From a virus, in the UHGV virus genome UHGV-1356964: DNA of 10,501 bases, one strand, 5' to 3'. The position numbers and the translations under genes are program-made. The notes under the pieces were generated by a model. That model saw nothing but the letters and a program-made list of their open reading frames with translations. It was not told where the DNA came from and searched no databases. Below, in pieces: positions 1,307 to 10,501 of the stretch (position 1 is the stretch's first letter; each line of letters opens with the position of its first letter).

Positions 1307-1615
1307 ATGTTTAAATACTTGTTTTTTATACTTACCTTTATGGTTAGTAATTCATCAAGCGCAAAGATAAATGAAATAGTATGTGGTTCTCATCTTGTTA
1401 AAGTTAACACATCAAATGCGTCCAAAGTGCATCTAGATGATGTAGAATTTAGCCTTGAAAAAGAATTTTTTAACGAGGCTCGTTCTCTTGATTATATATC
1501 TATTGATAAAGAAAAATTCACTTTAACTGAGTTTTATTCTGGTGATTATAGTATAACAATACAATCACCAGAAACTAAAAAAAGAGATATTATTATGTGC
1601 AAGTTGTTACGTTAA
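1307..1615 (+). CDS. Hypothetical small secreted protein (102 aa, signal-peptide-like N-terminus), AT-rich cargo
   Basis: ATG at 1307 with GGTGA a few nt upstream. N-terminus MFKYLFFILTFMVSNSSSA looks like a cleavable signal peptide, followed by a hydrophilic ~80-aa domain. A 102-codon open frame in ~28% GC DNA is unlikely by chance because stops are frequent there. The ORF converges on and overlaps the stop of the neighbouring - strand gene (1607-1615), which lowers confidence. Confidence 0.35.
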   Translation: MFKYLFFILTFMVSNSSSAKINEIVCGSHLVKVNTSNASKVHLDDVEFSLEKEFFNEARSLDYISIDKEKFTLTEFYSGDYSITIQSPETKKRDIIMCKLLR

Positions 1616-2725
1616 CGCTTTGTTCTTATTTGAAATTGCACATATCATAGCAATAGCCATATAAAACACAGCAAAAAACGGCAGGCTAATTTTTAAAGAT
1701 GATAGCAACATCATTAGCTTTGCCCTTTTTGTTATTTTAATTTTAATTATAAAAACACAATATAATACTATGCATAATACTCCAAATGGAAGACCGAATA
1801 TTGTAATAAAGTTTCCAAATATAGTCATATCATATAACGACTCATAAAATGATGGCGCAGATTCTGACTTACCAATCAAACCATAACCAAAAATATATAA
1901 ATTTTGATTTCCAATAAAATCAAGAATGGTCTCTATCTTTATATTATTGCTACCATCAGCCCCAGATAGAAATAAAACAATCCTGTCATTTACAATATTT
2001 AAAACAGAAAGATACCCAATCACAAATATTGCTATCACTGGGATAATCATCCTAATTCTCATCATGCCAACACATAGCATGAGAAAGCAAAGAAATATTC
2101 CAACAAATGACAATGTAAACGTCATTGAAACGCATGACAGTAAAAACAAATAATCAATCTTTTTATTAATTGCATATCGTAACGTAATTAACCACGCTGT
2201 TATTCCGCAATATACACTTGGTTCTGCAGTTAGCCCTGTTGGCCTAAACCCAACTCCAGTCATCATATTTCTTGATGGTTCACCACCAATTAGCATAGAG
2301 TAGTCAACAATAGAACCAAATAAAAGTTTCGATACTACTTGAATAAATAAAGAGAGTATGAAAACTACTAGCGCTGCATTTATGGATCTCTCTAAAGTAT
2401 CTTTATCCACCCCCTTACATCCAACATATAACAAGTATGACGACACCACCCAAATTATTACTTTAAGCGTCTGTGATAATAATATCTCATTATGCTTTGA
2501 TATATAAACTTGGATAAATGAACTTATTATAACAATAGATACCACCATTATTATAAATAATAATGACTGATACGTCATTTTACTTACACTTTTTGCGTAT
2601 AAAAAAAGGCATGCGAATGGAAATAGGAATAGTTGTACACCATAAACTGTCACCGGAGATGCTAAATCTATAATTACACCAATTACTGCAATAAAAAGGA
2701 AAAAGGCACTCATGTTAACCACCAT
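1607..2725 (-). CDS. Polytopic inner-membrane protein, Wzy/EpsG-like (candidate O-antigen polymerase / serotype-conversion protein)
   Basis: 372-aa ORF with about 10 hydrophobic helix-length segments separated by short loops, one with GGEPSRNMMTGVGFRPTGLTAEPS. Very low GC. It lacks the N-terminal motif I associate with acyltransferase-3 O-acetylases, and its size fits Wzy-type polymerases (350-450 aa). It sits in the int-tailspike slot that P22-like phages use for O-antigen modification genes. The start may be the second ATG (2711-2713), which has GGTGG 5 nt upstream. Function is inferred from topology and context only. Confidence 0.6.
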   Translation of the reverse strand: MVVNMSAFFLFIAVIGVIIDLASPVTVYGVQLFLFPFACLFLYAKSVSKMTYQSLLFIIMVVSIVIISSFIQVYISKHNEILLSQTLKVIIWVVSSYLLYVGCKGVDKDTLERSINAALVVFILSLFIQVVSKLLFGSIVDYSMLIGGEPSRNMMTGVGFRPTGLTAEPSVYCGITAWLITLRYAINKKIDYLFLLSCVSMTFTLSFVGIFLCFLMLCVGMMRIRMIIPVIAIFVIGYLSVLNIVNDRIVLFLSGADGSNNIKIETILDFIGNQNLYIFGYGLIGKSESAPSFYESLYDMTIFGNFITIFGLPFGVLCIVLYCVFIIKIKITKRAKLMMLLSSLKISLPFFAVFYMAIAMICAISNKNKALT

Positions 2726-2772: not shown

Positions 2773-4821
2773 TTATAAATATTTCAAGACAAACATCATG
2801 AGCTCATCATATCTTACACCATATCTGTCACCGAAATCAGTTTCGTCTTTGCACCAGAACCCATACTTTTCAGGATTTAACCCATTATTGCGCATTATGA
2901 CGCCAACCGTTTGCGCCCCGACACCAAAATGATAACGCGCGTTACCACCTTTACTTCTGATGCTCTCTTTCAGCTTGTACCTGTAAATACATTTTCTTAT
3001 TTCATTTGCCGCTTGTTTTTCTTTCAATAAAAGATCATCTGAACATCCGCATGGTTCTTTCATTGATTCATCTGATGTAGTTATTACACCTGTGGTAGAA
3101 TATATTGCTGACCATCTTTTTGTTGTATCGCCTAATGCCGTATCTGAGTCACCTTCAGGAGCTAATCTATTATAGCCACTAATAAGAAGGTCATTTTTTG
3201 GGAGCTCTTTTGATACTCCACCATCAGTTGATGTTAATTTAACGCCTCTTGTTCCAGGTATACTTTTTATTTCAATGCCTGCCTCTGATGTTCCTATTAT
3301 CTGTAGATCGGAATTTTTATTTCTACCATCCTGAAATGGAAGTTCAAAAACATTAGATGTAAATCTCCAATCCGTATCAGAATAAAGCTCGGCTGGTGAC
3401 GAGTTATCGCGCTGTATTATAATGGCACCTTTTCCGCTATCTCGTCTCCGACAACCGGCAATGTTTGCTTGGTTGGGATCCATATTTGAGCTAACCAACA
3501 CACCATCAAACTGAGATATGCTTTCGTAATTATTAGCTCCTTGCCGCTGTGCACTTTCACTTATATAAACCCATGCCCAATCAAAATGGTTCTCATAACT
3601 TCCAACGTTCAGGTCAATCTGATACGGACGAGTGCACAACTCGCCAAAAAACCCACGGAAGTGGATATTACCTGCCACTGATGTATCACTGTTCACCGTC
3701 TTAACAATACGTACTGCGCATGGCACGTCTGCAGGCCAATTGCCCAGAGTGATATTCTCGGAGTGGCCACCAAACACGCGCAAAGAGTCGGTAGACTCAA
3801 TCCAAAAACTACAATTTCCCGTGGCATGATGGGGGTTATATATATGTATGCGCGTATTATTATTATCGCCACTGACGCTGCGTTCAAAATAAAACCCACA
3901 GTCTACACGCTCAAAGTTAGGGTTCATAATTGAGTGGTAGTACGAGCCGCTGTTTTCACCTGATACTGTTGGTCCCGGCTTGAATTTCAGTCCGACTTTT
4001 ACTCCCCTTGCACGTGGATTCTCCATTACACAAAATTGCTGTGACACACGCATGGTTGCCTGAGATTCGTCTTCAGGAGCAATGGCGTAGGCAATAACGT
4101 CAGAGTAGTTATCTGGGTTAATTACTACAGGATTGATTATGTGGCAGAAATCATGGCTCATTCTTAAACATGTAATTCCCGAGTCTCCTGCTACGATTGT
4201 TGTACCAGTAAAATCAATATACCGTGTAGATGTAACATCCTGTGTATACGAGCCATCGAACTTCATTACAAGACTTTGTGTTATGCGATATATCGCACCT
4301 ACTCTCCCTGTTAATTTACCAAAAGGTATTCCTTCGAGCCATGCTAATGCTGATAACATAGATGTGGTGTCGTCAACAATCCCATCACCAATTGCCCCAA
4401 ACTCTTCAAATGTTTTAATGGCTGTCGCCCGATGCGCTATCTGATCAATTGTTGAGCCATATTTTGTTAGACTCTGCCTTAGCTGATCAGGATCATACTT
4501 CAGCACGTTTGGAAAATAGAACTGCTGTGCACCATACGCATCATAAACAGCCATAGAATGACCTTGCACCGTAACAAACTTGGCAATCTGTCCGTTATAT
4601 ACAGGGTAACCAGCAGAATTGATAATGATTGGTTGCGAAACAGGAATGTGAGATCCGTCTTCGTTCTCTACATAAACCTGAATCTGGTTTTCAGGATTTA
4701 CCGGGTCAGTATCAATTTTACCGATATAAATTTTGCCATTGGCTACGGCTTTAAAAGAACGCGCCATAGTGAAGAGTTGCGAAGGCATACTCACTACAAC
4801 ATTGGCTGTAATGTCTGTCAT
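2773..4821 (-). CDS. Tailspike protein (P22/Sf6-type head-binding domain, beta-helix-like receptor-binding domain, C-terminal intramolecular-chaperone-like domain)
   Basis: The N-terminus [61 protein letters not shown]...VLKYDPDQ matches, from memory, the conserved head-binding domain of P22-family tailspikes. The central region is Gly/Asn/Ser/Thr/Asp-rich with many aromatics, typical of a beta-helix glycanase. The C-terminus has TSDESMK, fitting the S-D-x-x-x-K Ser/Lys motif of self-cleaving chaperone domains. GGAG lies 8 nt upstream of the ATG at 4819-4821. Confidence 0.93.
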
Positions 4822-4877
4822 TTAATTTGCTCCAGATACAAGGAATCGCCGCAGCGGGACTACGGTGAATTTTGGGC

Positions 4878-4902
4878 ATAAAAAACCCAGCCGAAGCTGG
4901 GT
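4878..4902 (-). terminator. Intrinsic terminator (- strand) upstream of the tailspike gene
   Basis: The - strand transcript would form a 7-bp stem (ACCCAGC / GCUGGGU) with a 4-nt loop, followed by UUUUUAU (reverse complement of + 4878-4884). On the + strand the stem is followed by CGTTGCG, so it is not a + strand terminator. Confidence 0.55.
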
Positions 4903-4953
4903 CGTTGCGTTGGTTATCTGTCAGTAGTTATGTACTGGCTGAAGGATTTGTAC

Positions 4954-4983
4954 AAAAAACCACCTGACGGTGGGTTAATTTTT
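4954..4983. terminator. Hairpin with flanking A and T runs (bidirectional terminator candidate; stronger on - strand)
   Basis: Stem CCACC (4960-4964), loop TGAC, stem GGTGG (4969-4973). On the + strand it is followed by GTTAATTTTT; on the - strand by UUUUUUG (reverse complement of AAAAAA at 4954-4959). The stem is short (5 bp). Confidence 0.45.
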
Positions 4984-5001
4984 GCATTTACCTGGGCCAT
5001 A

Positions 5002-5030
5002 TTGACTACTCATAAAATGAGATCAATATT
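5002..5030 (+). promoter_or_regulatory. Candidate sigma70 promoter for the small basic-protein gene
   Basis: -35 TTGACT (5002-5007), 17-bp spacer, -10 AATATT (5025-5030), about 37 nt upstream of the ATG at 5067. The spacer contains the inverted repeat CTCAT-AAA-ATGAG (5009-5021), a possible operator. The -10 is weak. Confidence 0.3.
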
Positions 5031-5066
5031 TAATCGCCCAATAACGGGTGCATGTTGAGGTATATC

Positions 5067-5246
5067 ATGGCGAAAAAACCAGGTGAAAACACAGGAAAAA
5101 ACGGCGGAATATACCAAGAAGTTGGCCCACGCGGCGGTAAGAAAGACAATTTTGCCACCGTCAAGGACAACGAAAGGCTTCCACCAACAACAAAGCCAGG
5201 TCATGGCTGGGTATTGGATAAGCGAACTCCAGACAGCAAAAAGTAA
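5067..5246 (+). CDS. Small basic Gly/Lys/Pro-rich protein (59 aa), function unknown
   Basis: ATG at 5067 with GAGG 6 nt upstream; the track's 5052 start is probably an upstream in-frame ATG without a ribosome-binding site. Product: MAKKPGENTGKNGGIYQEVGPRGGKKDNFATVKDNERLPPTTKPGHGWVLDKRTPDSKK. A + strand terminator follows immediately (5253-5275). I could not place the family from memory. Confidence 0.6.
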   Translation: MAKKPGENTGKNGGIYQEVGPRGGKKDNFATVKDNERLPPTTKPGHGWVLDKRTPDSKK

Positions 5247-5252
5247 TAATCA

Positions 5253-5275
5253 AGCCGGTTCACTCCGGCTTTTTG
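5253..5275 (+). terminator. Intrinsic terminator after the small basic-protein gene (overlaps the 3' end of the convergent peptidase gene)
   Basis: Stem AGCCGG (5253-5258), 6-nt loop TTCACT, stem CCGGCT (5265-5270), followed by TTTT (5271-5274), 7 nt after the TAA at 5244-5246. On the - strand the same hairpin is followed by a moderately U-rich tract, so it may also serve the convergent gene. Confidence 0.6.
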
Positions 5276-5625
5276 ATATGTTGCTCGCAGAACTCAACAA
5301 GCCTGCTCATTAAGTAGCAGTAAGTCTCGTTGGCTCTTCCTGGTTCAACATCAACACCTACCCTTGAGCAGATATCGAATGCCATGTGAGCGCACTCATG
5401 GGCAATAGTAGATAGTTTGCCATTGAACACGCCTATCACATGCAAAACACCATTCTCGCTACTCATTGTATGAGACGCTCCGTTGGCGTCCGAGTCATGC
5501 ACGTCAACGCCAAGTTTTTGATGCAGGCGTTGCCATTCTGGAAAGTCTCTACAAAACACAATTGTACCGCTCTCAAAGAGCGGAACGAGCATCTTTGGTA
5601 CGTTTCCAATGTTAACTTTTTTCAT
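5260..5625 (-). CDS. Small HEXXH zinc-metallopeptidase-like protein, ImmA/IrrE (DUF955)-like, 121 aa
   Basis: The motif KLSTIAHECAHMAF (x-T-[LI]-A-H-E-x-x-H) is followed about 15-25 residues later by VEPGRANETYCYLMS, which resembles the E-x-x-A-N-x-[FY]-x-x-x-L-[LM] segment after the HEXXH in ImmA/IrrE-type peptidases. AGGA lies 4 nt upstream of the ATG. There is no adjacent helix-turn-helix partner gene. Confidence 0.75.
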   Translation of the reverse strand: MKKVNIGNVPKMLVPLFESGTIVFCRDFPEWQRLHQKLGVDVHDSDANGASHTMSSENGVLHVIGVFNGKLSTIAHECAHMAFDICSRVGVDVEPGRANETYCYLMSRLVEFCEQHIKKPE

Positions 5626-5659
5626 GGTATCCTGCGAAAAACTAAGGAGAGTTAATTAT

Positions 5660-6145
5660 ATGAAAAAATCACTGTTAATTATCCCGCTTCTGCTGGCTGG
5701 GTGCGCAAAAGTAAGCGACTATCAGGCAAGTTGCGAGCAACGCTATCCAAAGCTTAGCGATATGGCTAATTGCCTTGATGCCAGCTTGAAGAACGACTCT
5801 CGCATGGCATCAGCACCAACACCTAAGCTGTATGTCCTTGCTGCGAAGATGCTCGGGCAAGGTGTCGATGAAGGCAAGATAAGTGACACACAGGCAAGAC
5901 TTGAACTTCAGAATCTTTATGTTCAATTACAAAGCCAAGAACAAGCACAACAAATAGCACAAAGCCAAGCATTCCAGCAGGCTTTATTGAATTATCAGGC
6001 TGTAAACACAATGCAAGCGATCGAGCAAAAAGCGCGCCAGCCTGTTATAACTCAACCTTACCCAACACGCGTTGACACATATACAAACTGCAATTCAGGA
6101 TTTGGAAACACGGTAACATGCAACAGTAGCAGTAATATCAGGTAG
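5660..6145 (+). CDS. Lipoprotein (161 aa; lipobox LAGC, Ala at +2, Gln-rich middle region)
   Basis: ATG at 5660 preceded by AAGGAG (5644-5649). N-terminus MKKSLLIIPLLLAGCAKVS is a classical type II signal peptide with lipobox L-A-G-C. The track's longer ORF from 5609 would overlap the divergent peptidase gene start and lacks a ribosome-binding site. The mature protein is Gln/Ala-rich with a Cys-containing C-terminal tail (TNCNSGFGNTVTCNSSSNIR). Confidence 0.8.
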   Translation: MKKSLLIIPLLLAGCAKVSDYQASCEQRYPKLSDMANCLDASLKNDSRMASAPTPKLYVLAAKMLGQGVDEGKISDTQARLELQNLYVQLQSQEQAQQIAQSQAFQQALLNYQAVNTMQAIEQKARQPVITQPYPTRVDTYTNCNSGFGNTVTCNSSSNIR

Positions 6146-6159
6146 TTATATCTTATCTT

Positions 6160-8007
6160 TTATTGCTGTTCTGCTGTAATTTGGCTTGAAAGTATAGGGC
6201 GTATCGCATTTGCAGCATTATTTAGCGCTCTTTCATAGGCTGGTGTTCCTGCTTTGGTGTTTGCCAGACGTAAGAGAGCATTCCTTGCTGCTTTGGACTC
6301 ATACAAGCGCATCATTGCACCGAAACCAGCCTCAAGCCCCATTGATACGCCAAGAGTCGCAGTTGCGCCAATCGTCCTTATCCTGTTGGCTTGCGATTGC
6401 CCCGTCTGAGTTACTACATTTGCGGTGTCTGACCTTGCTGTTTGCTGTAGAACTTCATGAAGAGCATCAAGCTCTTTCATGTGCTTTCCTGAAAAAATAG
6501 TGTTGTAAATTTCACCGCCTGACTGAGATTTCAGCTTATTAACTTCAGTGATGAACTTGGCTGGAGAGTCACCGGCCTTTTCCGCTATTTTGCTGACGTA
6601 AGCTGCACGCATAGCATCTTTCCCTTTATCATCCAGTGCGCTCCAGATTCGTTTCACGTCAGATGGTTTTCTGCTTAATACAACGGTATTTATAAGTTCA
6701 GGACTGGCTTCACTGCTTGCCTTGTTGAGCTTGTTAGCAATGTTTTTATTAAGCACCTTATTATAAACGTTTGCATAATCGGAATTTGCTTTAAGGTATT
6801 TTGCTGCGTCTGATGCACCGAGGTTTTTTGCAACTGCGTTACGAAGATCTTTTGACATTGCATTCTCTACCATATTGGTAGCTGCTTTTGCCTGGTTGGG
6901 GAAGACCATAGCATCTCCCTGAACATTAGATCTAAATGCTGTTCTGTGCTGACGCAAGAGATCAAACGTAACATCCAAATCAGTTGCAGGGTTTGCTAAT
7001 TCTTCACGTAGGTTACGCAAGGATGTAAGCAGGCTTTGATTGGCAGACGTCCCAAGCCGTTCCTGTCTTGCGATCGCTGTATTCAGAGCATTCATGGTAT
7101 TTGTGGTATCAACTGCGGCATTACCCATTTTATTGGTAACGTCATTGATAACAGCGCCAGCGGCATCCTTCCGTCCCCTTAACGTGGTGGTCAGAGATTT
7201 CACCACATCATCCGGGTTGTACTCACCAAAACGGTCAAAATAATTACTTACCAACTTACTACGCGTTGCATATTGCTCCGCTCGCTTTGAGCCTGTCCCG
7301 AGCAAAGCCCCCTCGGCATCCTGAGTTAGGCCGCGAGTGAAAGCATTTTTCGGCGGGATAACATCAGATGTCATTGGTGTCACGCCCATCGATTCTGATG
7401 TGGCAATTTTCTTCGCCACTTCTGGCGCAATATCACCTTTTATAGCCGTTATTCCACGCCCTATTCCCTTTGCTGCTGCGGAAAGAACACCCTGAGTGGC
7501 AAGGTTAACTCCGGCATTTTTAGCTGCATTTTGTGCGAAATCGCCTTTCTGATTTGTGGCCTCTGCCAGTGAGCCAATAGCCATGCTTCCTGCCGTTCCA
7601 ACTCCTGGAACTAAATACCCACCAATTGTTTCACCGGCTTGCGCGTAAGGGTCTGTCGGTCGATCGACAGGGCGATAAACATCATCCAAAACCTTGGGGC
7701 CACCAAGCCCCTGGCTGATTGCATTAATCAGGCTTGCGCCGCCCTGTAATACGTCGAATGGTATATTTACCAGACCACGACCTGCCTGTTCTGCAATTTG
7801 CCCTGCACTTTGACCACCAGTGAGCCAATCGCCAGCTTGTTGCATCAATGAAGGTTCTTCACGTGCTGGTTCATTATTGGCCTGATTAACTGTTTGTTGC
7901 TGAACAGCCTGACCAGCAAAATACTCATCAATGGCGGTGCCAATATCTTCCGTGCTCGTACCATCAGGAAAGGTAAATGTCTTACCGTTTGCAGTTACTT
8001 TCATCAT
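6160..8007 (-). CDS. Ejection (DNA-injection) protein, P22 gp16-like
   Basis: 615-aa ORF, last gene of a tightly packed - strand operon. Its start overlaps the stop of the upstream gene (ATGATGA at 8001-8007). Size and position match P22 gene 16 (609 aa); composition is Ala/Gly/Asn/Thr-rich as expected for ejection proteins. The assignment is by synteny and size, not sequence identity. Confidence 0.88.
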
Positions 8008-9410
8008 TCCACCGTAAATTGAATGCCTGATTTTGATGTATATGATCCAACCTGATTCCGTGGTTCTCCTGAAGGTGTCGAATCTTGTGCTGGCGCTGCG
8101 TCAGTATTCATTGACATATACCGCTTAACGGCACTCCCCAATGATTCACCTTTTTTAACATCCAACCCCAATATCTGACCGCCATTACGCGATTGTCCTG
8201 GGTTGCCATTCGCGCTCATCCACTCGGCTTTAAACTCATTAAACTGCGCGTTTCGTCGCTCAAGGTTTGCCATAGCATCAAGCCATCTTGCGACCGTCTC
8301 AGGGTTATCCATGTCAGTTGGTGCACCCTGCCGAACGATCTCAACATCTTTATCCGTTGCGGGGCCGGGAGGTAGGAATTTAAGAACCTGACTGTTAACA
8401 AGGGCATTTTGGCGAATGCGCAAATCACGCAATGTCGTATCGCTTCCGGTAAGTTTTGCGAACATGTTCTGTGCGTTACCGAACAAACCTGTCGTTGGTT
8501 TTTCTGCTCTGAACTGTTGAGCAAGCGCACTCATAGAATTGGCTGAGTTTGATGATGCTGTGGCATTGTTTACAGCCGTCTCGATGCCTTTTTCCATGTT
8601 TACTGACAGCTTAGGTGCTTCGCTAATCAACTGCTGAGCCTTTTCCTGCGCTTGCTGCATCTTAAACCCGAACTCTTGCTGATCCAGAGCCAAGCGTTGT
8701 GCTGCGATATTGTGCCCAGTCATTGCTGACTGATAGGAAAGGTTTTGCCCTCTCGCCTGAAGTGCCTCGCCAGCCTGATTGCTGCGGATTGTCTCTGCCA
8801 GTCTGCCTCGGTCAATTTCACGACCAGCCATTTTGTCCTGAACATTGAAGTAATCAATCGGACCAAGAGCAGCCATCCCAAGGTGATCAACAAACTCACC
8901 AAATCCTGAAGGATTCTGCTGATACATCTGAGCAACGCTGTTAGGGTCAACACCGACGCGAGTCAGTTCCTTGGCGTTGTTTTGCAGCCATGATTGCATT
9001 GCTTCTGGAGACGATGACGCAAGGCGTGCGCCAGCCGCTAAGGTGCCGATAGAATTACGCTGGTCTTCATCAATGAATCCCATGCCTTTACGAACGGATT
9101 CAATCTGGTCTGGATATTGAGTAGCCAACTGACGCAAAGCACCGCGATCACCAGACGCATAAGCATTAGCGTACGCCTGCTGAAATTCTTTCTGTCGCTG
9201 AGCCTGCTTTTCCTGCTGAAACACCCCTGCAATACCTGAAAGACCTTGCAAAGCAGTCAGCCCAACATTGTTAGCGCCTGAACGCTCAATATCATTGTTC
9301 TGCCTGATAAGCTGAAGCGTATTGCCGATGTCATTTACGCTCGGAGCGTTTGAGTTGACGCCGCCGATACCAGCTAACAATCCGCCATTTGATCCTTGCC
9401 AAGTAGCCAT
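8004..9410 (-). CDS. Ejection protein, P22 gp20-like
   Basis: 468-aa ORF between the gp7-like and gp16-like genes; size matches P22 gene 20 (471 aa). GGGG lies about 7 nt upstream of the ATG, and the stop overlaps the downstream gene's start (translational coupling). Confidence 0.88.
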
Positions 9411-9419
9411 GATTACCCC

Positions 9420-10112
9420 TTAAAACAACGAGCCAAGCAATCCGATACCAGCACCAATGCCAGCGCCCCAAGGTGTTGATGTTCCCAAAAGGCTGGCAAG
9501 ACCTGCACCGGCAATCGCACCAGACGTGCCACCGCTAATTGCAGTCTGAAGACTTGATGGTTTATTGGCATTAGCAGCGGCAAGAGCTGCGCTTTGCTGT
9601 GCAATGCTGCTCATGTTGTTGGCGTACGTCTGCCCGGCGTTTGCCTGACCTTGCAGCGCACCAAGCCCAACGTTTGCCAGATTGTTGTAATTGCTCATCT
9701 GGTTTGATAACCAAGACTGACCGAGAGTCGGCGCGATCGTAGCCAGTTGATTGCTTGTGGCTGTCGAACCAAGTCCACCCGTCGCCTCCGCAGCAGCAAG
9801 ACTCTGGTAGCGAGCCTGACCTGCAAGGTCTTTATACTGCTGAGAATTGTAATACTGATTAAGTGCCTGCCCCTGACCTTCTAAACTGGAAAGGTTCTGA
9901 AGCTGGTTAACATACTGCTCCGCAAGCGGCGTGAACGGAGCAAGGTTTTTCATGATCGTCTGCCACTGCTGATTTTGCAGGTCTGCTGCATACTTCTGAG
10001 CTTCTGCGGCATACTTTGCGCTTTTATCAGAACTGCCACCTTTCCCACCTTTTTCAGGGCAATAAGGTTCCTCGCCGCGCAGTTTTCTGCCCAGCTTAAA
10101 TGCATATAACAT
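9420..10112 (-). CDS. Ejection protein, P22 gp7-like
   Basis: 230-aa ORF (P22 gene 7 is 229 aa). Gln/Ala/Asn-rich with a Gly-rich hydrophobic C-terminus (GAGIGAGIGLLGSLF). GGGAG lies 6 nt upstream of the ATG; the gene abuts the upstream ORF's stop. Confidence 0.88.
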   Translation of the reverse strand: MLYAFKLGRKLRGEEPYCPEKGGKGGSSDKSAKYAAEAQKYAADLQNQQWQTIMKNLAPFTPLAEQYVNQLQNLSSLEGQGQALNQYYNSQQYKDLAGQARYQSLAAAEATGGLGSTATSNQLATIAPTLGQSWLSNQMSNYNNLANVGLGALQGQANAGQTYANNMSSIAQQSAALAAANANKPSSLQTAISGGTSGAIAGAGLASLLGTSTPWGAGIGAGIGLLGSLF

Positions 10113-10114
10113 GG

Positions 10115-10501
10115 CTATCTCCCGTGATTCAGGAAGTCGATTAGTTCTTCGCGTGTGGCGCTGTAAAAAGTCACGTCATCCACGCCTTTAAAGTATTTCT
10201 TGATGGTTCCGACACGCTTAAGGCCAATCATTGCGCAGTAAATCTGCCCGTGGCGGAATTTGCGTGCGGCGAACGATGTGACGCACTGAACGGTGGTGTT
10301 AGTCAGAATGTATCGCCAGAACGCCAGCCCGATTTCCTTGCTGAAGCCGCGAATCTCTGGCAGGTACATGGCGTGGCAATCGAATGTCAGCGGCTGAATC
10401 TCCTGATAGTAAACAATTCCGCCGAACTGCCCGTGCACGTTCACCTCAAAGTAACGGCATTCAGGCTTGTAGTCGTATCCATCACCGTTGTTGCTCCCGG
10501 C
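10115..10501 (-). CDS. P22 gene-14-like protein, 3' portion (5' end beyond window)
   Basis: The reading frame is open from the window edge (10501) down to TAG at 10115-10117. The track's start at 10444 is a GTG, and the frame stays open upstream of it, so the gene most likely starts outside the window. Its position immediately upstream of the gp7-like gene corresponds to gene 14 in the P22 order 26-14-7-20-16. Assignment is by synteny. Confidence 0.75.
   Translation of the reverse strand, partial: AGSNNGDGYDYKPECRYFEVNVHGQFGGIVYYQEIQPLTFDCHAMYLPEIRGFSKEIGLAFWRYILTNTTVQCVTSFAARKFRHGQIYCAMIGLKRVGTIKKYFKGVDDVTFYSATREELIDFLNHGR

What the first reader, a model, noticed from the sequence alone, without database searches (positions are those of the whole stretch)
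5660..6145. Prophage-encoded outer-membrane-type lipoprotein next to the ejection-protein genes: candidate superinfection-exclusion factor
Clear lipobox (LLAGC) with Ala at +2, which predicts outer-membrane sorting; Gln-rich, coiled-coil-like middle region; its own ribosome-binding site; transcribed opposite to the late operon, so probably expressed in the lysogen. Small phage lipoproteins such as Cor and Llp are established blockers of receptor use or DNA entry. Inference: this one may block entry of related phages.
Basis: partly seen in the sequence, partly recalled or inferred. Interest (0 to 1): 0.55.

Follow-up and report, generated by a model that had tools for sequence, protein, structure and literature searches.

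The report
Prophage lipoprotein in the sieA slot
A small, conserved lipoprotein gene of a P22-like E. coli prophage sits exactly where phage P22 keeps its superinfection-exclusion gene sieA, behind the same promoter, so it is a strong but untested candidate for a new protein that stops related phages from delivering their DNA.

Summary
Window 5660-6145 (+) encodes a 161-aa lipoprotein precursor with lipobox LAG|C and Ala at +2. It is under strong purifying selection (dN/dS 0.04-0.14). It belongs to phrog_6067, whose function is unknown, and has no Pfam, NCBIfam, PADLOC, PDB or fold match.

The new result is positional. The DNA from orf59a through hkcC, the annotated P22 sieA promoter (31/31 bases) and the ribosome-binding site is about 98% identical to P22. 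Homology breaks at the start codon, where P22 has sieA and this prophage has the lipoprotein. It is therefore an ORF-for-ORF replacement in the sieA cassette.

None of 90 lipoprotein-bearing loci carries SieA type A or B. A third exported protein occupies the same slot in other E. coli prophages.

Published RNA-seq covers the 97.5%-identical copy in E. coli LF82 prophage Gally. That copy is transcribed in the lysogen while the neighbouring late genes are silent, and it rises about 16-fold in macrophages.

The protein is unrelated to SieA, Cor, Llp or Ltp. Remote relatives sit on integrase-primase islands.

Best reading: an envelope exclusion factor that works as an analogue of SieA. No functional test exists. 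The suggested coiled coil is not supported.

The parts
5660..6145 (+). Lipoprotein precursor gene (161 aa), member of phrog_6067
   Evidence: ORF and translation. phrog_6067, E = 2.9e-109. 90 homologue clusters across Enterobacterales. dN/dS 0.04-0.14.
5660..5704 (+). Signal peptide and lipobox (MKKSLLIIPLLLAG|C). Cys15 is the predicted lipidated first residue of the mature protein; Ala16 is at +2.
   Evidence: G14, C15 and A16 invariant. 111 of 120 relatives have a lipobox and none has Asp at +2.
5708..5884 (+). N-terminal helical domain (residues 17-75) with the conserved Cys25/Cys38 pair. This is the most conserved part and the part shared with remote relatives.
   Evidence: AlphaFold2 pLDDT 88-96. 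C25 and C38 invariant in 120 sequences. Profile hits cover positions 1-100.
5885..6034 (+). Gln-rich long helix (residues 76-125)
   Evidence: 16 Q in residues 76-127. A single helix H76-125 is predicted. No heptad signal.
6071..6139 (+). C-terminal beta-hairpin (residues 138-160) closed by Cys144/Cys154, motif TxC-x3-GN-x-V-x-C
   Evidence: Strands 138-146 and 152-160. C154 invariant. 96 of 120 relatives have a C-terminal Cys-Cys loop.
5644..5651 (+). Ribosome-binding site AAGGAGAG. It also marks the left recombination joint of the cassette.
   Evidence: Sequence. Homology with P22, Gally and O26 prophages changes partner here.
5595..5625 (+). Exact copy of the annotated P22 sieA promoter (TTGGTACGTTTCCAATGTTAACTTTTTTCAT), lying inside the 5' end of the divergent hkcC gene
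   Evidence: P22 record BK000583 annotates this promoter. 31/31 identity and its position in the window. The P22 85-bp upstream fragment sufficed for SieA function (PMC10883804).
5260..5625 (-). hkcC homologue (121 aa, phrog_1365). It is the left flank shared with P22 at 98% amino-acid identity and contains HECAH (an HExxH motif).
   Evidence: The gene name comes from PMC2629481.
5052..5246 (+). orf59a homologue (64-aa ORF, phrog_3202), part of the shared 'ant moron' flank
6160..8007 (-). Gene 16 homologue (ejection protein). It is the right flank, convergent with the lipoprotein gene, with 14 bp between the stops.
   Evidence: phrog_770. 75% identical to P22 gp16.

Best explanation
The gene is an alternative occupant of the sieA position in the 'ant moron' of P22-like prophages.

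Proposed mechanism: it is transcribed in the lysogen from the conserved sieA promoter. The product is exported, lipidated at Cys15 and, having no Asp at +2, probably moved by the Lol pathway to the inner leaflet of the outer membrane. From there its helical domain, a long Gln-rich helix of about 7.5 nm and a disulfide-closed C-terminal hairpin project into the periplasm. In that position it interferes with a step after adsorption in infection by P22-like phages. That step would be the passage or assembly of the gp7/gp20/gp16 ejection-protein conduit, approached from the outer-membrane side. It would thus be a functional analogue of the unrelated inner-membrane protein SieA.

Shown: gene reality, the lipoprotein signal, the cassette replacement with the promoter retained, mutual exclusivity with SieA A/B, and transcription in a lysogen.

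Inferred: outer-membrane location, the exclusion activity and its target.
For: 1. Same slot and signals. P22 sieA lies convergent with gene 16, 22 bp from its stop, and has its own promoter. In the window, 5230-5649 matches P22 at 410/420 bases. This stretch includes the annotated sieA promoter (31/31) and 77/79 of the bases between P22 position -85 and the ribosome-binding site. Homology ends at the start codon. In P22, sieA with 85 bp of upstream DNA, in single copy, gave at least 10^7-fold exclusion (PMC10883804).

2. Mutual exclusivity. None of 90 lipoprotein loci has a SieA type A hit or a type B hit. Only 22 of 66 P22-like phages carry sieA.

3. A slot for envelope proteins. In other E. 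coli prophages the same hkcC-promoter-RBS flank is followed by a third ORF with a Sec-type signal peptide (phrog_2651). Recombination joints cluster at the RBS and start codon.

4. Expression. LF82_138, which is 97.5% identical, averages 70 normalised reads in LB against a prophage median of 15.6. It is second only to the c2 repressor. Adjacent gene 16 stays at background.

5. Extracytoplasmic features are invariant.

6. Indifference to ejection-protein type. Copies at least 97% identical sit next to at least three gp16 types that are about 34% identical to each other, and next to gp20 at 36-100% identity. P22 and HS1 SieA show the same indifference.

7. Mobile, patchy relatives. Remote relatives are cargo on integrase-primase islands, one of them beside a T5orf172 gene. 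They are rare and patchy.
Against: No exclusion phenotype has been measured for any family member.

Moron slots can hold functionally unrelated genes, so position is only circumstantial evidence.

The authors of the LF82 study did not class the gene as a moron: it is 4.5-fold above background and their cut-off was 5-fold. Its strongest induction is inside macrophages and without macrophages in what I take to be cell-culture medium, which could point to a host-interaction role.

PADLOC has no model that matches.

One remote relative lies among housekeeping genes.

The predicted helix starts only 2-3 residues after the lipidated Cys. From memory, a tether that short may hinder Lol-dependent sorting, so the compartment is uncertain.

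The fold gives no functional clue.
Confidence: 0.45

Rival explanations
1. A lysogenic-conversion envelope factor that benefits the host for reasons unrelated to phages, for example stress tolerance, serum or macrophage-related fitness, or envelope remodelling. This would resemble lambda Bor or TraT. It would occupy the slot only because the slot tolerates independently expressed morons.
For: Transcript level (log2 fpkm+5) rises from about 6.1 in LB to about 8 in the B1/B6 samples. I take these to be bacteria without macrophages, probably in cell-culture medium. It reaches 10.3 inside macrophages at 1 h. The gene is found in pathogenic lineages: AIEC LF82, O26:H11 and O104:H4. One remote relative lies in a housekeeping neighbourhood.
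Against: Deleting the whole Gally prophage did not change LF82 survival in macrophages (PMC9928086). The entire right end of the prophage is induced together, including mnt and the tailspike gene, so induction is not specific to this gene. There is no similarity to Bor, TraT or any known virulence lipoprotein. The exact replacement of sieA, and a third exported protein in the same slot, fit a phage-directed role better.
Confidence: 0.25
2. A Cor/Llp-type receptor blocker: an outer-membrane lipoprotein that inactivates an outer-membrane protein used as a receptor (for example OmpA, OmpC or FhuA). It would stop adsorption or triggering rather than trans-periplasmic DNA delivery, and it might act on unrelated phages.
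For: It is a small phage lipoprotein without Asp at +2, like Cor. Seven of 120 relatives touch phrog_1119 (Cor). From my own knowledge, some P22-like phages such as Sf6 use OmpA/OmpC as secondary receptors.
Against: The profile-profile match to HK022 Cor covers only 25 columns, all within the signal peptide, lipobox and the residues just after it. The only PDB hit to T5 Llp (8a60) likewise covers the signal peptide, with E = 0.58. At 146 mature residues with a long helix, the protein is built differently from Cor (77-aa precursor in HK022) and T5 Llp (83-residue chain 8a60_B). The slot's characterised occupant acts on DNA delivery, not on adsorption.
Confidence: 0.15
3. A phage-cycle function rather than a prophage function, for example a lysis or release accessory (spanin-like) or an aid to virion release.
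For: It is a predicted outer-membrane lipoprotein with conserved periplasmic Cys residues, as o-spanins are. From the gene order, late-operon transcripts must cross this region to reach the tailspike gene. PMC8022706 describes the region as lying inside the late operon.
Against: It is on the strand opposite to the late operon and outside the lysis cassette. Gally has its own Rz. It is transcribed in the uninduced lysogen while the lysis genes are silent. It is absent from most P22-like phages: only 5 of 50,697 phage records carry it.
Confidence: 0.05

Closest known systems
P22 SieA (phrog_7745; types A, B and C of Leavitt et al. 2024, PMC10883804)
   Same: Same genomic slot and orientation, convergent with gene 16. 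Same promoter and ribosome-binding site in the hkcC-flanked version. Similar size (164 versus 161 aa). Expressed from the prophage. Mutually exclusive in 90 loci. Found next to many ejection-protein types.
   Different: No sequence similarity. SieA is a polytopic inner-membrane protein with a cytoplasmic FxRYPxEAxxFNK motif. This protein has one cleavable lipoprotein signal, no transmembrane helix and conserved periplasmic disulfide pairs, and it is predicted to be anchored in the outer membrane.
Cor (phi80, N15, HK022; phrog_1119) and T5 Llp
   Same: Small phage-encoded lipoproteins carried as morons. The signal peptide and the first mature residues are similar (CAGV versus CAKV).
   Different: Homology stops after about 25 residues. 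The mature protein is about twice as long and has a different predicted architecture. Cor and Llp block FhuA, a receptor that, to my knowledge, P22-like phages do not use.
Ltp of Streptococcus phage TP-J34 (lipoprotein that blocks DNA injection by binding the tape-measure protein)
   Same: The proposed logic is the same: a prophage lipoprotein outside the cytoplasmic membrane that intercepts the phage's own DNA-delivery proteins (known from PMC3952083 and the reference list of PMC10883804).
   Different: Gram-positive host. No sequence match appeared in the PDB profile searches, whose library should include the solved Ltp structure. The fold differs.
Defence hotspots of temperate phages and satellites (interchangeable cargo at a fixed locus)
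   Same: One locus with conserved flanks carries at least five unrelated alternatives: SieA types A, B and C, this lipoprotein, and the exported phrog_2651 protein. The joints lie at the RBS or start codon. Remote relatives sit on integrase-primase islands.
   Different: All the occupants I examined (SieA A and B, this lipoprotein, phrog_2651), and SieA C as described in PMC10883804, are single small envelope proteins, not multi-gene cytoplasmic immune systems. The hotspot idea comes from my own knowledge and I did not check it against a paper here.

Membership tests
Bacterial lipoprotein precursors (Lgt/LspA/Lnt substrates) | N-terminal signal peptide ending in a lipobox [LVI][ASTVI][GAS]C | tested here: met
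   MKKSLLIIPLLLAG|C. Invariant G14 and C15. 111 of 120 relatives have a lipobox.
Bacterial lipoprotein precursors (Lgt/LspA/Lnt substrates) | Actual lipidation, and outer-membrane sorting when Asp is absent at +2 | not testable with these tools
   Ala16 is invariant in close homologues, and no Asp at +2 occurs in the 111 relatives with a lipobox. Localisation needs fractionation, globomycin treatment or a C15A mutant.
phrog_6067 (unknown function) | Full-length profile match | tested here: met
   E = 2.9e-109 over 1-161/161. All 120 members of alignment A3 match.
SieA superinfection-exclusion proteins (phrog_7745) | Sequence homology to SieA type A, B or C | tested here: not met
   BLASTP finds no alignment with P22 SieA. 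Against HS1 type B, E = 0.18 over 32 residues. The PHROG assignment differs. Type C sequence was not tested directly.
SieA superinfection-exclusion proteins (phrog_7745) | Polytopic inner-membrane topology | tested here: not met
   No hydrophobic segment in the mature protein (maximum 19-residue Kyte-Doolittle mean 0.47). SieA topology as described.
SieA superinfection-exclusion proteins (phrog_7745) | Position between gene 16 and the immI/tailspike genes, convergent with gene 16, with its own promoter | tested here: met
SieA superinfection-exclusion proteins (phrog_7745) | Blocks DNA injection by P22-like phages | not testable with these tools
   Needs plating, K+ efflux and DNA-entry assays.
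Cor superinfection-exclusion lipoproteins (phrog_1119) | Homology of the mature protein | tested here: not met
   hhalign aligns only 25 columns, all signal peptide and lipobox. The window protein has no phrog_1119 hit.
Moron (independently expressed insert in a phage operon) | Own promoter and expression from the repressed prophage | tested here: inconclusive
   The promoter is identical to the annotated P22 sieA promoter. The LF82 homologue is 4.5-fold above prophage background, just under the 5-fold cut-off used by the authors. That copy has a different upstream flank.
o-spanin (Rz1-type lysis lipoprotein) | Embedded in or next to Rz in the lysis cassette, and expressed late | tested here: not met
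   It lies between gene 16 and the tailspike gene on the opposite strand. It is expressed in the lysogen while the lysis genes are silent.

The most novel reading that the evidence does not exclude
The sieA position of P22-like prophages is a dedicated hotspot of interchangeable envelope exclusion cassettes that swap by recombination at the ribosome-binding site or start codon. Its occupants are SieA types A, B and C, this lipoprotein, and an exported phrog_2651 protein. Under this reading the phrog_6067 lipoprotein family is a previously unrecognised exclusion factor anchored in the outer membrane, also carried by satellite-like islands across Proteobacteria. It would attack the podovirus ejection-protein conduit from the opposite side of the periplasm to SieA.
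Probability: 0.35. Interest if true: 0.65.

Novelty: new variant of a known kind. Interest (0 to 1): 0.5.

Why it matters
About two thirds of sequenced P22-like phages lack sieA, and how those prophages defend the same entry route has not been worked out. A lipoprotein that replaces sieA ORF-for-ORF behind the sieA promoter gives a direct candidate that is cheap to test.

If it excludes phages from the outer-membrane side, escape mutants would report on which ejection or needle proteins act there. That would complement the gp16/gp20 escape data obtained for SieA.

The gene is in 186 of 5426 complete E. coli genomes, including O26:H11, O104:H4 and AIEC LF82. It could therefore affect phage typing and phage therapy with P22-like and related podoviruses.

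The cassette structure also shows recombination joints placed precisely at translation signals.

Tried and rejected
- Domain and family searches. Pfam, NCBIfam and PADLOC returned nothing for the protein. Pfam also returned nothing convincing for ten remote relatives.
- PDB by sequence profile. Only sub-threshold hits, either to lipoprotein signal peptides (FlgP, T5 Llp) or to generic helices.
- Cor homology. Suggested by 7 of 120 relatives hitting phrog_1119. Rejected, because the match is confined to the signal peptide.
- Coiled coil. Rejected by the heptad and hydrophobic-moment shuffle tests.
- Consensus promoter scan. Found no strong sigma-70 site upstream. The promoter call therefore rests on identity with the annotated P22 sieA promoter.
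- Species-representative genomes. Gave only 5 loci, as expected for an accessory gene.
- Literature. Searches for the accession numbers and for a P22-like lipoprotein exclusion factor found no study of this protein.
- Remote relatives.

Full report
**What the window is.** The 10.5-kb window is the right end of a P22-like (Lederbergvirus-type) prophage of E. coli.

| Coordinates | Strand | Gene |
|---|---|---|
| 222-1025 | + | IntS-type integrase, cut by the window edge |
| 1307-2725 | both | low-GC module |
| 2773-4821 | - | tailspike with the P22 head-binding domain |
| 5052-5246 | + | 64-aa ORF |
| 5260-5625 | - | 121-aa ORF |
| 5660-6145 | + | the gene in question |
| 6160-8007 | - | gene 16 homologue (ejection protein) |
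| 8004-9410 | - | gene 20 homologue (ejection protein) |
| 9420-10112 | - | gene 7 homologue (ejection protein) |
| 10115-10444 | - | gene 14 homologue |

Related prophages are integrated next to an Arg tRNA gene beside intS.

**Check of the observation.** The ORF, its start (ATG 5660), the AAGGAGAG ribosome-binding site at 5644-5651 and the stop (6143-6145) are as described.

- The product begins MKKSLLIIPLLLAG|CAKV.
- In 27 homologues down to 50% identity, G14, C15 and A16 are invariant.
- In a 120-member alignment that includes remote relatives, 111 have a lipobox and none has Asp at +2.
- The mature part has no hydrophobic segment.
- It carries two conserved Cys pairs, C25/C38 and C144/C154. 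The second pair faces across a predicted beta-hairpin. This fits a protein folded in the periplasm.
- The middle is Gln-rich, with 16 Q in residues 76-127, and is predicted as one 50-residue helix.
- A heptad and amphipathicity test is no better than shuffled sequence, so 'coiled-coil-like' is not supported.
- The gene is convergent with gene 16, with 14 bp between the stops.
- Purifying selection is strong: dN/dS is 0.044 against the Gally copy at dS 0.24, and 0.14 against the O26:H11 copy.

**Distribution.** The protein belongs to phrog_6067, function unknown. It has no Pfam, NCBIfam or PADLOC match.

- Ninety clusters of homologues occur across Enterobacterales: Escherichia, Citrobacter, Serratia, Klebsiella, Cronobacter, Yersinia, Pectobacterium, Morganella, Providencia and Tatumella. 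One of the named ones is called 'lipoprotein', one carries what looks like a mis-assigned GspK name, and the rest are 'hypothetical protein'.
- Five sequenced phages carry it, all P22-like and all in the same position.
- It is in 186 of 5426 complete E. coli genomes, including O26:H11 11368 and O104:H4.

**The key result: it sits in the sieA cassette.** In P22 (BK000583), sieA lies immediately after gene 16 on the opposite strand and has its own annotated promoter. It is followed by an unannotated stretch, orf59a, mnt, arc and ant.

- The window's 121-aa ORF is 98% identical to a P22 ORF in that unannotated stretch, and the 64-aa ORF matches orf59a.
- The literature calls these genes hkcC and 59a, and calls the whole region the 'ant moron' (PMC2629481).
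- At the DNA level, window 5230-5649 matches P22 at 410 of 420 positions.
- The annotated sieA promoter is present exactly, at window 5595-5625.
- Of the bases from P22 position -85 to the ribosome-binding site, 77 of 79 are identical.
- Homology ends within a few bases of the start codon. Beyond that point P22 has sieA and the window has the lipoprotein.
- Leavitt et al. showed that sieA plus 85 bp of upstream DNA, in single copy at galK, excludes P22 at least 10^7-fold (PMC10883804).

The lipoprotein gene therefore sits behind expression signals that are known, in their P22 context, to work in a lysogen.

**Mutual exclusivity and a third occupant.** Across 90 loci that carry the lipoprotein, tblastn finds no SieA type A and no type B (HS1 SieA). 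In the Proteus phage Brookers the slot holds only an Arc-family gene and the lipoprotein.

- Among the E. coli genomes that match window 5400-5900 (306 genomes), 19 have the whole hkcC-promoter-lipoprotein junction.
- About 15 of 40 evenly sampled records match only up to window 5653.
- Most of the rest match only from 5621-5659 onward.
- In two of the 'left-flank only' genomes the same promoter and RBS, identical to P22 up to the GTG start, are followed by a different ORF. It is about 129 aa, has a Sec-type signal peptide and belongs to phrog_2651, function unknown.

The slot thus carries at least five unrelated alternatives: SieA A, B and C, the lipoprotein, and phrog_2651. All are small envelope-targeted proteins, and the joints lie at the translation signals.

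**Expression.** The copy in E. coli LF82 prophage Gally (GALLYPH_13 = LF82_138) is 97.5% identical. The figures below are from S1 Table of PMC9928086.

| Measure | LF82_138 | Comparison |
|---|---|---|
| Normalised reads, overnight LB | 70.2 | prophage median 15.6; c2 repressor 727 |
| log2(fpkm+5), LB | 6.29 / 5.96 | gene 16 stays at 3.6-4.2 in all conditions |
| log2(fpkm+5), B1 samples | 7.87 / 8.15 | |
| log2(fpkm+5), B6 samples | 8.02 / 8.22 | |
| log2(fpkm+5), macrophages 1 h | 10.29 / 10.30 | |
| log2(fpkm+5), macrophages 6 h | 8.70 / 8.54 | |

- In LB the gene is the second most expressed in the prophage, after the c2 repressor. At 4.5-fold above background it falls just under the authors' 5-fold moron cut-off.
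- I infer that B1 and B6 are bacteria without macrophages, probably in cell-culture medium.
- The whole right end of the prophage, including mnt and the tailspike gene, rises together in macrophages.
- Deleting Gally did not change macrophage survival.
- The Gally copy has a different upstream neighbour. This shows lysogenic expression of the family, not use of the P22-type promoter.

**Structure and remote relatives.** With a 120-sequence alignment AlphaFold2 gives a mean pLDDT of 79.6.

- Residues 17-75 plus the start of the long helix form a compact helical domain (pLDDT 88-96).
- One helix runs from residue 76 to 125.
- A Pro-rich linker follows, then a beta-hairpin at 138-160.

A profile search of 1.84 billion representative proteins finds 242 relatives. 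Most are 100-190 aa, and they share the signal peptide, the N-terminal domain and usually the C-terminal Cys loop. The informative contexts are:

- two small islands with an integrase plus a primase/helicase, one of them next to a T5orf172 gene;
- one variable region next to a DUF4365 gene;
- one housekeeping neighbourhood.

The relatives of that last protein are few and patchy. The family looks like mobile accessory cargo.

**Comparison with known exclusion proteins.** There is no similarity to SieA A or B. The match to HK022 Cor is confined to 25 columns of signal peptide and lipobox. The PDB hit to T5 Llp is of the same kind and not significant. Nothing resembling Ltp was found. Copies of the lipoprotein at least 97% identical sit next to at least three gp16 types about 34% identical to each other, and next to gp20 at 36-100% identity. 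This resembles the reported indifference of P22 and HS1 SieA to ejection-protein type.

**Interpretation.**

- Best reading (about 0.45): an envelope exclusion factor that stands in for SieA, acting after adsorption on DNA delivery by P22-like phages. It is probably anchored in the outer membrane and reaches into the periplasm.
- Rival (0.25): a host-fitness lipoprotein unrelated to phages.
- Rival (0.15): a Cor/Llp-like receptor blocker.
- Rival (0.05): a phage-cycle function.

The gene itself, the lipoprotein signal, the cassette swap, the mutual exclusivity and lysogenic transcription are shown. Localisation, activity and target are inferred. No published functional study of this protein was found.

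**Verdict.** The protein is an uncharacterised family in a well-known functional slot, best described as a new variant of a known kind. Interest is moderate (0.5). The hypothesis is specific, and the strains and assays already used for SieA could test it directly.

Noticed in passing
window 5260-5625 (-): The 121-aa ORF divergent from the lipoprotein gene (phrog_1365, the hkcC homologue) contains an HExxH motif (HECAH), as in zinc metallopeptidases. It is 98% identical to an ORF in P22 that the BK000583 record leaves unannotated. The sieA promoter lies inside its first codons.
   Followed up: partly
L108 3257-3646 and L109 (E. coli A42 and PK13 prophages): A third alternative gene sits in the sieA slot behind the identical hkcC, promoter, RBS and GTG start. 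It is a roughly 129-aa protein with a Sec-type signal peptide (VKQFLTAMFLFISFGATA/ECW...), assigned to phrog_2651, function unknown.
   Followed up: partly
window 1307-2725: A low-GC module (28-31% against 44% for the window) lies between the tailspike and integrase genes. It comprises a 372-aa polytopic membrane protein (-) and a 102-aa ORF (+). Neither has a convincing Pfam, PHROG, NCBIfam or PADLOC match (the only hit is a weak Csx19 match for the 102-aa ORF, E = 0.0028). It sits where P22 has gtrABC and the O26 prophage has an acyltransferase, so it may be an O-antigen modification cassette.
   Followed up: no
window 5252-5271: A GC-rich hairpin flanked by T runs on both strands lies between the orf59a homologue and hkcC. 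By the alignment it falls at about L003 5219-5238, overlapping the terminator that the P22 record annotates for mnt (L003 5213-5235).
   Followed up: partly
L085 and L087 (IMG/VR contigs): The lipoprotein, mnt-like and tailspike genes are retained, but genes 16, 20 and 7 are missing downstream. They are replaced by a portal-gene fragment and early ea genes. These look like rearranged or degraded prophages that kept the lipoprotein.
   Followed up: partly
L095-L097 and L092-L094 (metagenome contigs): Remote relatives of the lipoprotein (38-46% identity over the N-terminal domain) are cargo on small islands with an integrase plus AlpA/primase or a DUF3987 helicase. In one case the neighbour is a T5orf172/MUG113 gene.
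   Followed up: partly
window 4822-5051, compared with L005 and L003: This prophage's 'ant moron' lacks mnt, arc and ant altogether. Only the orf59a homologue, hkcC and the lipoprotein remain. Close relatives with the same lipoprotein carry mnt alone or the full mnt-arc-ant set.
   Followed up: partly
L001 5447-5866 (Gally GALLYPH_14 = LF82_139): In Gally the divergent neighbour of the lipoprotein gene is a different 139-aa protein (phrog_6823, with a weak PEGA-domain hit). In the LF82 data set it is induced even more strongly than the lipoprotein, reaching log2 11.0 in macrophages.
   Followed up: no
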